From Giardia intestinalis (taxonomy: Eukaryota): DNA of 64,000 nucleotides. The stretch is taken from NCBI GenBank assembly GCA_000002435.2, contig CM018793.1, one strand, 5' to 3'. The first letter of the stretch is position 1. Each line of letters opens with the position of its first letter. This document shows, one piece after another, positions 39,737 to 41,362 of this stretch. Below the pieces are notes generated by a model. The model was not told the origin of the DNA, did no database searches, and worked only from the letters and a program-made list of their open reading frames with translations. A program made the translations under genes and the position numbers.

Positions 39737-41362
39737 ATGACTAATAGATCTAGCAGGGCCGCAATGTTGCTACTAGTTCTCTGCTTTTTGATGAGCGCCT
39801 TCACCGCGCAACGCACTAAACAACCCACATCCGACTGCGGAGTCGCAAACTGCGCCCAGTGCGTCTCTGGCGACAACACAAAGTGCGAGACGTGTAGCCC
39901 TGGCTTCGACCTCAGCAACGACAAGACGCAGTGCAACCAGAGGCCCGCGTCCAACTGCGGAGTCGCAAACTGCGCCCAGTGCGTCTCTGGCGACAACACA
40001 AAGTGCGAGACGTGTAGCCCTGGCTTCGACCTCAGCAACGACAAGACGCAGTGCAACCAGAGGCCCGCGTCCAACTGCGGAGTCGCAAACTGCGCCCAGT
40101 GCGTCTCTGGCGACAACACAAAGTGCGAGACGTGTAGCCCTGGCTTCGACCTCAGCAACGACAAGACGCAGTGCAACCAGAGGCCCGCGTCCAACTGCGG
40201 AGTCGCAAACTGCGCCCAGTGCGTCTCTGGCGACAACACAAAGTGCGAGACGTGTAGCCCTGGCTTCGACCTCGACGAAAACACAAAGCAGTGCAACCAG
40301 AGCCCTGCGTCCAACTGCGGAGTCGCAAACTGCGCCCAGTGCGTCTCTGGCGACAACACAAAGTGCGAGACGTGTAGCCCTGGCTTCGACCTCGACGAAA
40401 ACACAAAGCAGTGCAACCAGAGCCCTGCGTCCAACTGCGGAGTCGCAAACTGCGCCCAGTGCGTCTCTGGCGACAACACAAAGTGCACAAAGTGCCAAAG
40501 TAACTACTTCCTCACTCCAGAGAAGAACGCTTGCTTGACGTCTTGTCCGGCCGGGTCGTACGCGGTTGGGCAAACGTGCGCGCCCTGCGACTCCTCCTGT
40601 GCGGAGTGCAGCGGGGCCGGCGCTTCCAAGTGCACGGCCTGTCCCGCCGGGAAGATGCTGAGGTACGCCGACGAGAGCAAGCTTAATGAGGGCGGCCAGT
40701 GCGTGGAGCAATGCGTGGAAGGCCCGGAGTGCGAGACGTGCGGCCTAACAATTGGAGGTACCAAGTACTGCTCGAAGTGCAAGGGGAGCAACGTGCCGCT
40801 CAATGGCGTCTGCACAAGCAATGCGGCCAGGACTCTGTTCTGCACCACTGCCGCTAACGGTGCCTGCACGGCCTGCGCCGCCGGATACTTCATCCAGGAG
40901 GGCGGATGCTACAAGACTGACAGGCTCCCCGGGAAAAGCATCTGCACAACTGACAATGGAGGGAAATGCCAAACGTGTGCTAACGGACAAACCCCAGACG
41001 GAGGGACTGGAGTGTGCCCGCTGTGCGACTCCACCTGCAAGACGTGCGCAGCAGGACAGACACAGCAGTGTCAAACTTGCTTCTCTGGGTACTATAAGTC
41101 TGGAACAAAGTGTGTGAAGTGTGATGCTAGTGACGGCCAAATTACTGGCGTAACCGATTGCGTGAGTTGTGCTCCCCCGTCTACTAATCAGGGACCTGTC
41201 ACCTGCTATGTGAAGATGGATGGCAGCAGTGGAGGGAGTAGCACGAACAAGAGCGGCCTCAGCACAGGGGCCATAGCGGGCATCTCCGTTGCTGTGATTG
41301 TCGTAGTCGGGGGCCTCGTTGGCTTCCTTTGTTGGTGGTTCATCTGCCGGGGCAAAGCGTAG
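39737..41362 (+). CDS. variant-specific surface protein (VSP) containing 5.5 copies of a 40-aa repeat (CRP136-like)
   Basis: Signal peptide MTNRSSRAAMLLLVLCFLMSAFTA, CXXC motifs, GGCY-type motifs and the canonical tail GGLVGFLCWWFICRGKA-stop. Confidence 0.9.
   Translation: MTNRSSRAAMLLLVLCFLMSAFTAQRTKQPTSDCGVANCAQCVSGDNTKCETCSPGFDLSNDKTQCNQRPASNCGVANCAQCVSGDNTKCETCSPGFDLSNDKTQCNQRPASNCGVANCAQCVSGDNTKCETCSPGFDLSNDKTQCNQRPASNCGVANCAQCVSGDNTKCETCSPGFDLDENTKQCNQSPASNCGVANCAQCVSGDNTKCETCSPGFDLDENTKQCNQSPASNCGVANCAQCVSGDNTKCTKCQSNYFLTPEKNACLTSCPAGSYAVGQTCAPCDSSCAECSGAGASKCTACPAGKMLRYADESKLNEGGQCVEQCVEGPECETCGLTIGGTKYCSKCKGSNVPLNGVCTSNAARTLFCTTAANGACTACAAGYFIQEGGCYKTDRLPGKSICTTDNGGKCQTCANGQTPDGGTGVCPLCDSTCKTCAAGQTQQCQTCFSGYYKSGTKCVKCDASDGQITGVTDCVSCAPPSTNQGPVTCYVKMDGSSGGSSTNKSGLSTGAIAGISVAVIVVVGGLVGFLCWWFICRGKA
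39831..40486 (+). repeat. in-frame tandem array of a 120-bp unit (5.5 copies). Copies 1-3 are identical to each other; copies 4-5 are identical to each other and differ from 1-3 in a short block (LSNDKTQCNQRPAS -> LDENTKQCNQSPAS).
   Basis: Sequence lines 39841-39960, 39961-40080 and 40081-40200 are literally identical. Lines 40201-40320 and 40321-40440 are identical to each other. Confidence 0.9.

What the first reader, a model, noticed from the sequence alone, without database searches (positions are those of the whole stretch)
39831..40486. VSP with 5.5 perfect in-frame 120-bp (40-aa) tandem repeats in two sub-variants
Three identical copies are followed by two copies identical to each other, differing only in a short block (LSNDKTQCNQRPAS -> LDENTKQCNQSPAS). 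This indicates very recent unequal crossing-over or gene conversion. 40-aa/120-bp repeat VSPs (the CRP136/CRP170 class) are known in Giardia and vary in copy number between lines. Perfect repeats of this length are also prone to collapse in assemblies, so the true copy number may be higher. The antisense ORFs of 267 and 312 aa across the array are repeat-propagated artefacts.
Basis: seen in the sequence. Interest (0 to 1): 0.5.

Follow-up and report, generated by a model that had tools for sequence, protein, structure and literature searches.

The report
Giardia surface-antigen gene with tandem repeats
This is an ordinary, apparently already catalogued Giardia variant-specific surface protein gene whose outer part contains five and a half near-perfect 40-amino-acid repeats; such arrays are a known, size-variable feature of this antigen family.

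Summary
Positions 39830-40486 hold 5.5 head-to-tail copies of a 120-bp unit, in frame. Three copies are identical, then two are identical to each other, differing from the first three at 10 nt inside one 33-nt block.

The array lies in a solitary, intact VSP gene (39737-41362, 541 aa). It has a Pfam VSP match (E=1e-133), 13% Cys, 24 CXXC, a TM helix plus CRGKA, a CAATGTT initiator and the VSP poly(A) signal. The flanking proteins are identical to those of G. intestinalis WB chromosome 5.

The gene is almost certainly vsp141 / GL50803_114813 of Adam et al. 2010 (TR120, chromosome 5, 581 aa, 77 Cys, 26 CXXC).

One correction: CRP136 has 120-bp repeats, but CRP170/vspA6 has 195-bp repeats. The closest relatives are the vspC5 family (C5-S2, vsp108).

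One addition: the same locus in assemblage A2 (two independent assemblies) and E carries a 110-143-aa mini-VSP with a single unit joined directly to the anchor. The A1 gene therefore looks like a mosaic, with a native leader and unit, tandem amplification, and a body 95.6% identical to a paralogue at another locus.

Verdict: ordinary and already known.

The parts
39762..39768 (+). Candidate VSP initiator element CAATGTT. Its ATG (39764-39766) is Met10 of the long ORF and the probable real start codon (MLLLVLCFLMS...).
   Evidence: Regex hit. PyAatgTT is the vsp Inr consensus in Adam 2010. The paralogue C5-S2 (P0001) and the P15 orthologue start at the equivalent Met.
39737..41362 (+). Complete VSP open reading frame: 541 aa from the first ATG, 532 aa from the Inr ATG, stop TAG at 41360-41362. 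It is the only ORF ending in CRGKA* in the window, so it is a solitary gene, not part of a linear array.
   Evidence: The AlphaFold model has mean pLDDT 82.9, with beta-hairpin modules throughout and a C-terminal helix at residues 519-538.
39737..39835 (+). 99-bp leader encoding the signal peptide and pre-repeat segment (MTNRSSRAAMLLLVLCFLMSAFTAQRTKQPTSD).
   Evidence: Identity is 29/33 to vsp108 (P0007) and 26/33 to the A2 orthologue P0167. A leader of 66-99 bp before the repeats is the published layout.
39836..40195 (+). Repeat units 1-3, type A, identical 120-bp / 40-aa copies (CGVANCAQCVSGDNTKCETCSPGFDLSNDKTQCNQRPASN). Each has 6 Cys and 2 CXXC.
40196..40435 (+). Repeat units 4-5, type B, identical to each other (…FDLDENTKQCNQSPASN). 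The 10 differences from type A lie at 40274-40306 and 40394-40426.
   Evidence: The string DLDENTKQCN occurs exactly in the WB paralogue C5-S2 (P0001).
40436..40486 (+). Partial sixth unit (CGVANCAQCVSGDNTKC). It runs in register into a non-repeated homologous module (TKCQSNYFLTPEKNAC).
   Evidence: In alignment A2 the following module of the paralogues aligns with the unit.
40487..40567 (+). Short segment closest to a different set of paralogues (P0005, P0002, P0008: CTKCQSNYFLTPEKNACL.SCPAGSYAV).
   Evidence: Segment identities: 57/67 to P0005, against 41/67 to P0001.
40568..41369 (+). Non-repeat extracellular body, membrane anchor and 3' end. It is 95.6% identical at DNA level to a VSP at a different locus of the A2 isolate DH (C5-S2 cluster), which suggests this part came from a paralogue.
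   Evidence: blastn of window 40568-41369 against L023 1867-2668 gave 95.6% over 802 bp. The WB paralogue C5-S2 (P0001), a member of the same 90% cluster as that DH gene, matches 95/100 over residues 401-500.
41291..41359 (+). Transmembrane helix (residues 519-538) and the invariant cytoplasmic tail CRGKA (41345-41359).
   Evidence: These columns are nearly invariant in the alignment of 61 VSPs.
41369..41383 (+). Extended VSP polyadenylation signal ACTTAGGTAGTGAAT (contains AGTGAAT), beginning 7 nt after the stop codon.
   Evidence: This is the only match to ACTYAGRTAGTRAAY on either strand of the window. That this consensus is VSP-specific comes from my own knowledge of the Giardia literature, not from a tool.
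39685..40711 (-). Span of the antisense ORFs across the array (39685-40488, 267 aa; 39773-40711, 312 aa; 40152-40490, 112 aa). They are open only because one stop-free antisense frame of the unit is repeated.
   Evidence: Their translations are periodic. They have no Pfam match above the curated cut-offs.

Best explanation
The window is Giardia intestinalis assemblage A1 (WB-type) chromosome 5. The feature is the repeat region of a solitary, intact variant-specific surface protein gene, most probably vsp141 / GL50803_114813.

Protein layout. The protein is a type-I membrane antigen. It has a signal peptide, then 5.5 copies of a 40-aa six-cysteine module that models as furin-like beta-hairpins. 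About 280 aa of non-repeated modules of the same kind follow, then a TM helix and the CRGKA tail.

Likely function (inferred). Like other VSPs it would coat the trophozoite only when it is the single VSP expressed. The repeated N-terminal (membrane-distal) modules would present a multivalent, probably immunodominant epitope.

How the array behaves (inferred). The array arose, and keeps changing, by unequal exchange or slippage between perfectly identical 120-bp units. This adds or removes whole 40-aa modules without breaking the frame or the cysteine pattern. The A/B difference is a short imported patch (gene conversion or recombination with a family member), not accumulated point mutation.

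Origin of the gene (inferred). The gene as a whole is a mosaic. Its leader and first unit are native to the locus. The same locus in assemblages A2 and E carries only a mini-VSP consisting of leader, one unit and anchor. The unit was amplified, and the body came from C5-S2-like and other paralogues.

Shown here: sequence anatomy, family membership, synteny and mosaic similarity. Inferred: expression, immunodominance, and the order and mechanism of the recombination events.
For: - Array anatomy.
- VSP hallmarks: Pfam VSP E=1.1e-133; 71 Cys, 24 CXXC, GGCY and CRGKA; Inr and poly(A) signal, and the only CRGKA ORF in the window; nearly invariant family columns.
- Organism and locus: four neighbouring proteins are exact matches to WB proteins on the 4,018,654-bp contig.
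- Catalogue match: vsp141, GL50803_114813, clade II, TR120 x6, chromosome 5, CAATGTT, 581 aa, 77 Cys, 26 CXXC. That equals the window protein plus one unit (40 aa, 6 Cys, 2 CXXC). This way of matching was validated on P0001 (370/47/16 = vsp71, C5-S2) and P0007 (530/71/24 = vsp108).
- Repeat-bearing VSPs are a known class: 30 genes in WB, 105-516 bp units, allelic copy-number variation, immunodominant repeats.
- Fold: pLDDT 82.9, with regular hairpins in every unit. The best confident solved analogues are R-spondin furin-like repeats (prob 0.99-1.0).
- Synteny: the DH contig is collinear with window 38719-39935 and 41303-44000 but carries a 110-aa VSP. An identical mini-VSP is present in an independent MEGAHIT assembly. 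P15 has a 143-aa mini-VSP with the same unit-to-anchor junction.
- Mosaic.
- Unit family: alignment A2. P15 paralogues have 3 x 40-aa and 3 x 35-aa repeats behind the mini-VSP leader.
Against: - Neither the 541-aa, the 532-aa nor the modelled 581-aa proteins are in the protein collection. The link to GL50803_114813 therefore rests on catalogue arithmetic, not on a sequence alignment.
- No read-level data were available, so 5.5 copies cannot be separated from a one-unit assembly error in this record or the older one.
- The direction of change (gain in A1 versus loss in A2 and E) rests on parsimony with two lineages. The assemblage-B-like contigs I could fetch stop 193 bp or less before the neighbouring gene.
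- WB DNA of C5-S2 was not retrievable, so the proposed donor of the B block is supported only at the amino-acid level.
- Expression and antigenicity were not tested.
Confidence: 0.85

Rival explanations
1. The array is real in kind, but its length in this record (or in the older catalogue) is an assembly error. The true WB gene would have a single fixed copy number, and the 5.5 versus 6.5 difference is technical, not biological.
For: - Perfect 120-bp units are hard to count. Adam 2010 warn that repeat numbers are approximate and may be condensed by assembly.
- The catalogue entry is one unit longer than the window.
- Short-read assemblies of A1 isolates never cross this gene. All contigs stop at 41350 and 39194.
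Against: - A 660-780-bp array is within reach of Sanger and long reads.
- Allelic copy-number variation is documented for vspA6 and vspC5, so a real one-unit polymorphism is equally plausible.
- I could not tell which assembly the window comes from.
Confidence: 0.35
2. The A1 gene is the ancestral state. The mini-VSPs in A2 and E are deletion derivatives or collapsed assemblies, so nothing was gained in A1.
For: - VSP genes are notoriously mis-assembled from short reads.
- Deletions between the repeated modules and the conserved 3' end are easy to imagine.
Against: - Two independent A2 assemblies give the identical 110-aa gene.
- P15 (E) has the same unit-to-anchor junction (QC[IV]SSSINKSSG), which is distinct from the WB membrane-proximal sequence.
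- The WB body is 95.6% identical to an A2 gene at another locus, as expected if it was copied from a paralogue.
- Another protein (P0201) shows units running straight into the same SSINKSS junction.
Confidence: 0.15
3. The gene is a silent or decaying cassette used only as recombination material, not an expressed antigen.
For: - No expression data were found for it.
- Adam 2010 propose that many vsp copies serve as recombination cassettes.
Against: - That proposal concerns downstream members of linear arrays that lack an Inr. This gene is solitary.
- It has the Inr at a conserved Met, an uninterrupted 541-codon frame and the VSP poly(A) signal.
Confidence: 0.1

Closest known systems
vsp141 (GL50803_114813) of Giardia WB, catalogued by Adam et al. 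2010 (PMC2996952, Additional file 1)
   Same: Chromosome 5, clade II, CAATGTT Inr, 120-bp tandem repeat, complete gene. The length, Cys and CXXC counts differ from the window protein by exactly one repeat unit.
   Different: 581 aa and '6' copies against 541 aa and 5.5 copies here. Identity could not be confirmed by alignment because the protein is not retrievable.
vspC5 family (vspC5 = vsp90 with 105-bp repeats; C5-S2 = vsp71 = P0001; vsp108 = P0007 with 5 x 35-aa repeats)
   Same: - Same type of leader: 29/33 identity to vsp108.
- Homologous six-Cys unit, C-x4-C-x2-C-x6/7-C-x2-C-x12-C (alignment A2).
- The B block DLDENTKQCN is identical to C5-S2, and the body is 95/100 to C5-S2 over residues 401-500.
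- Repeats follow directly after a 66-99-bp leader.
   Different: - The unit is 40 aa here, not 35 aa.
- In vspC5 the repeats run up to the conserved 3' end, whereas here a 280-aa non-repeat body follows.
- That vspC5-like layout is what the A2 and E orthologous mini-VSPs have, with a single unit.
CRP136 (vsp130, GL50803_103142, L29079)
   Same: Clade II VSP with a 120-bp / 40-aa in-frame tandem repeat.
   Different: About 22 copies, 1274 aa, chromosome 4, TAATGTT Inr. It is a different gene. Adam 2010 say each repeat-bearing gene has its own unique repeat sequence. The unit sequences could not be compared here.
CRP170 / vspA6 (vsp67)
   Same: The classic repeat-bearing VSP: a 99-bp leader, then the tandem array, then about 1.3 kb of unique sequence and the conserved end. 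Allelic copy-number variation and immunodominant repeats are documented.
   Different: The repeat is 195 bp (65 aa) with about 23-25 copies, not 120 bp.
Furin-like cysteine-rich repeats (R-spondin Fu1-Fu2; Pfam Furin-like_2)
   Same: Best confident solved structural analogues of the modelled modules: Foldseek prob 0.99-1.0, TM up to 0.6 on the target.
   Different: Only fold-level resemblance at 20-27% identity. No solved VSP structure was found by sequence.

Membership tests
Giardia variant-specific surface protein (VSP) | Match to the family profile (Pfam PF03302) | tested here: met
   E=1.1e-133, 446.5 bits against a cut-off of 31.4.
Giardia variant-specific surface protein (VSP) | C-terminal hydrophobic anchor followed by the invariant pentapeptide CRGKA and a stop | tested here: met
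   The protein ends ...GGLVGFLCWWFICRGKA*. Residues 519-538 model as a helix.
Giardia variant-specific surface protein (VSP) | About 11-13% cysteine, mostly as CXXC, plus a GGCY motif | tested here: met
   13.1% Cys, 24 CXXC, GGCY at residues 389-392. The published range is 3.6-18.6 CXXC per kb.
Giardia variant-specific surface protein (VSP) | N-terminal signal peptide | tested here: inconclusive
   There is a hydrophobic MLLLVLCFLMSAFTA stretch after Met10, modelled as a helix at residues 11-21. No signal-peptide predictor was available.
Giardia variant-specific surface protein (VSP) | PyAatgTT initiator at the start codon and the extended poly(A) signal after the stop | tested here: met
   CAATGTT at 39762 and ACTTAGGTAGTGAAT at 41369. 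The poly(A) consensus is from my own knowledge.
Giardia variant-specific surface protein (VSP) | Mutually exclusive surface expression and switching | not testable with these tools
   Needs clone-level RNA or protein data.
Tandem-repeat-bearing VSPs (30 genes in WB, Adam 2010) | In-frame tandem repeat of 105-516 bp, two or more copies, beginning 66-99 bp after the ATG | tested here: met
   120 bp x 5.5, starting 99 bp after the first ATG.
CRP136 (as the same gene or allele) | About 22 copies of the 120-bp unit, 1274 aa, chromosome 4, TAATGTT Inr | tested here: not met
   5.5 copies, 541 aa, chromosome-5 neighbours, CAATGTT.
CRP136 (as the same gene or allele) | Repeat-unit sequence similarity | not tested
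   The CRP136 sequence could not be retrieved. The 1274-aa hit P0246 proved to be an unrelated protein of ciliate-like composition.
CRP170 / vspA6 class | 195-bp (65-aa) repeat unit | tested here: not met
   The unit here is 120 bp. vspA6 has 195 bp.
vspC5 family | Shared leader and a homologous 35-40-aa six-Cys unit directly after it | tested here: met
   Leader 29/33 to vsp108 and 18/33 to C5-S2. Units align with all six Cys invariant. The vspC5 sequence itself was not available.

The most novel reading that the evidence does not exclude
The locus may preserve a datable example of how a long, repeat-bearing VSP is built from a minimal one. The starting point would be the ancestral 110-143-aa 'leader, one module, anchor' gene still present in assemblages A2 and E. 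After the A1/A2 split, the A1 lineage would have amplified the native module in tandem, imported a variant block, and grafted on about 0.9 kb of body from paralogues. On this reading the array is still polymorphic by one unit (5.5 versus 6.5) within or between A1 lines.
Probability: 0.45. Interest if true: 0.35.

Novelty: already known. Interest (0 to 1): 0.18.

Why it matters
VSPs are the antigens that Giardia switches to evade host immunity, and repeat arrays change their size and epitope valency. This particular gene adds nothing new in kind. It is a reference-genome VSP of a catalogued class.

Two points have modest practical value:
- The one-unit discrepancy between records flags the array as a possible VNTR, or as an assembly trouble spot, for anyone typing A1 isolates or quantifying VSP expression.
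- The comparison with the A2 and E mini-VSPs gives a clean, small example of VSP diversification by module amplification plus ectopic recombination. This is consistent with published statements that AI and AII repertoires evolved largely independently.

Tried and rejected
- Exact look-ups of the window protein found nothing: 541 aa, the Met10 version of 532 aa, and modelled versions with 1+1 to 5+2 units, including both possible 581-aa forms. The full-length homology search gave no hit above 83% identity. The gene's own database entry could therefore not be examined.
- A word-index search with the repeat region gave only 3 candidates and 1 hit, the DH mini-VSP.
- The exhaustive representative search with the repeats returned generic cysteine-module proteins (those inspected look ciliate-like). 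The 1274-aa hit is not CRP136, so the CRP136 unit comparison could not be made.
- WB DNA for C5-S2 and vsp108 was not on record. The proposed donor of the B block could not be checked at nucleotide level, and the DH and ENA members of that cluster lack the block.
- Short-read contigs of A1 isolates end at 41350 and 39194 and never enter the gene. The odd tail of L007 looks like a k-mer chimera.
- The more divergent, probably assemblage-B, contigs start 193 bp or less upstream of the neighbouring GTPase gene, so the outgroup state is unknown.
- Literature searches for 114813 identifiers found nothing relevant.
- HCMP rather than VSP was rejected because CRGKA is present. A coding role for the antisense ORFs was rejected.
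Full report
**1. Observation**

Tandem Repeats Finder reports one array in 38000-43000. It lies at 39830-40486, with period 120, 5.5 copies, 98% matches, no indels and score 1173.

Reading the units directly and phasing from 39836 (CGVANC...) gives this picture:
- Units 1-3 are identical (type A).
- Units 4-5 are identical to each other (type B).
- A 51-nt partial unit ends at 40486.
- A and B differ at 10 nucleotides, all within unit positions 84-116. The other 87 positions are identical.
- These differences fall in 7 codons, 6 non-synonymous and 1 synonymous.

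The array is in frame with ORF 39737-41362. The antisense ORFs of 267 and 312 aa, and a third of 112 aa, exist. Their translations are periodic, and they have no Pfam match above the curated cut-offs.

**2. What the gene is**

The 541-aa product has every VSP hallmark I could test:
- It matches Pfam VSP (PF03302) at E=1.1e-133.
- It has 71 Cys (13.1%), 24 CXXC and a GGCY motif, and it ends ...CWWFICRGKA*.
- A CAATGTT initiator sits at 39762, so its ATG is Met10 of the long ORF. Paralogues and the P15 orthologue begin at the equivalent Met.
- The extended poly(A) signal ACTTAGGTAGTGAAT starts 7 nt after the stop. This is the only match to that pattern in the window. The consensus itself is from my own knowledge.
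- It is the only CRGKA-ending ORF in the window, so it is a solitary vsp and not a member of a linear array.

An AlphaFold2 model built on 61 homologues has mean pLDDT 82.9. It shows regular beta-hairpin modules in every repeat and a C-terminal helix at residues 519-538. The best confident solved analogues are the furin-like repeats of R-spondins. No solved VSP structure is detectable by sequence.

**3. Where it is**

Four neighbouring ORFs translate to proteins identical to WB proteins on the 4,018,654-bp contig:
- the GTP-binding protein KAE8304749 / XP_001705157;
- GL50803_15868;
- a MAPK;
- the tenascin-like protein XP_001705148.

The window is therefore assemblage A1 (WB-type) chromosome 5. 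Another A1 isolate with identical housekeeping genes cannot be excluded.

**4. Which catalogued gene it is**

Adam et al. 2010 (PMC2996952) list 30 repeat-bearing vsp genes in WB. Units range from 105 to 516 bp, with 2 to more than 20 copies. The authors warn that copy numbers are approximate, and they cite evidence for allelic copy-number variation in vspA6 and vspC5.

Their table has three TR120 genes:
- vsp4: chromosome 3, 247 aa;
- vsp130 = CRP136: chromosome 4, 22 copies, 1274 aa;
- vsp141 = GL50803_114813: clade II, chromosome 5, CAATGTT, 6 copies, 581 aa, 77 Cys, 26 CXXC.

The window protein has 541 aa, 71 Cys and 24 CXXC. One unit is 40 aa with 6 Cys and 2 CXXC. So vsp141 equals the window protein plus exactly one unit.

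I checked that this kind of matching works. P0001 (370 aa / 47 Cys / 16 CXXC) equals vsp71, C5-S2. P0007 (530 / 71 / 24) equals vsp108. Both checks also show that the table counts from the first ATG.

I could not confirm the assignment by alignment. The window protein, its Met10 version and modelled variants with other copy numbers are all absent from the protein collection. No hit exceeds 83% identity.

**5.

CRP136 does have a 120-bp repeat. CRP170 (vspA6) has a 195-bp repeat. By sequence, the nearest relatives I found belong to the vspC5 family:
- The leader is 29/33 identical to vsp108, which carries five 35-aa repeats.
- The B block DLDENTKQCN is identical to a single unit in C5-S2.
- The body, residues 401-500, is 95/100 identical to C5-S2.

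An alignment of units from these genes keeps all six cysteines invariant: C-x4-C-x2-C-x6/7-C-x2-C-x12-C. The module that follows the array in non-repeat paralogues aligns with the unit too. The partial sixth unit therefore joins the body in register.

**6. Comparison of the same locus in other assemblages**

This goes beyond the original finding.
- The DH (A2) contig AHGT01000077 is collinear with window 38719-39935 (95.7%) and 41303-44000 (97.9%). Between these stretches it has only about 75 bp. Its VSP is 110 aa: leader, one unit (CGVANCAQCVSGDNTRCETCSPGFDPNDDGTQC), then ISSSINKSSGLSTG..., the anchor and CRGKA.
- An independent MEGAHIT assembly (ERZ27317378) contains the identical 110-aa gene.
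- P15 (assemblage E) has, at the same position next to the GTPase gene, a 143-aa VSP. It ends ...DCQVDNCARCAQGKPAECEECNPNFDLDNGTKQCVSSSINKSSGGLSTG...CRGKA, which is the same unit-to-anchor junction.

With A2 and E agreeing, parsimony makes the mini-VSP ancestral and the 1.37 kb at window 39936-41302 an A1-lineage addition.

That addition is a mosaic:
- 40487-40567 is closest to P0005-type genes.
- 40568-41369 is 95.6% identical at DNA level to a DH VSP at another locus, ESU38908 on AHGT01000008. That value is about the same as orthologous A1-A2 divergence.

P15 also has paralogues with the mini-VSP leader followed by 3 x 40-aa or 3 x 35-aa perfect repeats. A fragment, P0201, has units running straight into the SSINKSS-anchor junction. 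Amplification of this module behind this leader is therefore recurrent in the family.

**7. Mechanism**

Shown here:
- perfect identity within sub-variants, in a genome region whose orthologous flanks differ 2-4% between A1 and A2;
- all A/B differences clustered in one patch;
- both block types present elsewhere. A-like (…ND.[KG]TQC) occurs in the A2 orthologue and in P0006. B-like (DLD..TKQC) occurs in C5-S2 and the P15 orthologue.

Inferred:
- The A/B difference was imported by recombination or gene conversion.
- Each type then spread by unequal exchange or slippage between adjacent units, giving the AAABB order.
- The process is recent or ongoing, which fits the one-unit difference from the catalogue.
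- Functionally, the protein would form the surface coat when it is the one VSP expressed. Its repeats, the N-terminal part of the ectodomain, would act as a multivalent epitope. Repeats are immunodominant in vspA6.

Not tested: expression, antigenicity and metal binding.

**8. Limits**

- Short-read assemblies of A1 isolates never cross the gene. Contigs stop at 41350, inside the conserved 3' end, and at 39194. No read-level check of copy number was possible.
- The probable assemblage-B contigs stop just before the gene.
- The CRP136 sequence could not be retrieved.

**9. Verdict**

The finding is accurate, and its interpretation is essentially right. The feature is an ordinary, already catalogued repeat-bearing VSP. 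The residual interest is the one-unit copy-number discrepancy and the mini-VSP to long-VSP comparison across assemblages.

Noticed in passing
window 38000-39300: A 63% G+C island in a genome region that is otherwise about 47% G+C. It contains a 131-aa FOP_dimer-domain gene (38182-38577) and a 146-aa ORF (38731-39171). Several long overlapping ORFs on both strands appear to be kept open by the G+C content.
   Followed up: partly
window 673-2028 (+) and 35002-37569 (-): Two further cysteine-rich genes hit the Pfam VSP profile (E=2.8e-39 and 2.6e-15; the second also hits Furin-like_2). Neither ends in CRGKA, so they are probably high-cysteine membrane proteins. The first lies in another G+C-rich stretch (60%).
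   Followed up: partly
window 41350 and 39194: Every A1 short-read (Logan) contig carrying the flanking genes ends at one of these two points. One is inside the conserved VSP 3' end and the other is 540 bp upstream of the VSP. L007 continues past 39194 into unrelated sequence, probably a k-mer chimera.
   Followed up: partly
L013 1018-1350; L015 741-1103; L014 909-1340: Mini-VSPs of 110 aa (A2, two assemblies) and 143 aa (E) lie at the orthologous locus. Each has one module joined to the anchor through an unusual SSSINKSS motif.
   Followed up: yes
P0007 (XP_001705986.1, vsp108, GL50803_102662): This WB VSP has five 35-aa repeats and nearly the same leader as the window gene. It is present only in the old annotation set (eukprot source) and not among the KAE proteins of the newer WB assembly. 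It may have been re-modelled or lost there.
   Followed up: no
P0195, P0208 (representative library): Unnamed proteins carry perfect tandem repeats of about 60 aa built from a module with the same cysteine spacing (C-x4-C-x2-C...C-x2-C). Tandem amplification of this module type is therefore not confined to Giardia.
   Followed up: no
window 41738-43543; L013 1531-3531; L014 1867-3699: The neighbouring LSG1-like GTPase gene is modelled with different N-termini in different assemblies: 601 aa in WB, 666/661 aa in A2 and 610 aa in P15. These look like start-codon choices rather than real differences.
   Followed up: no
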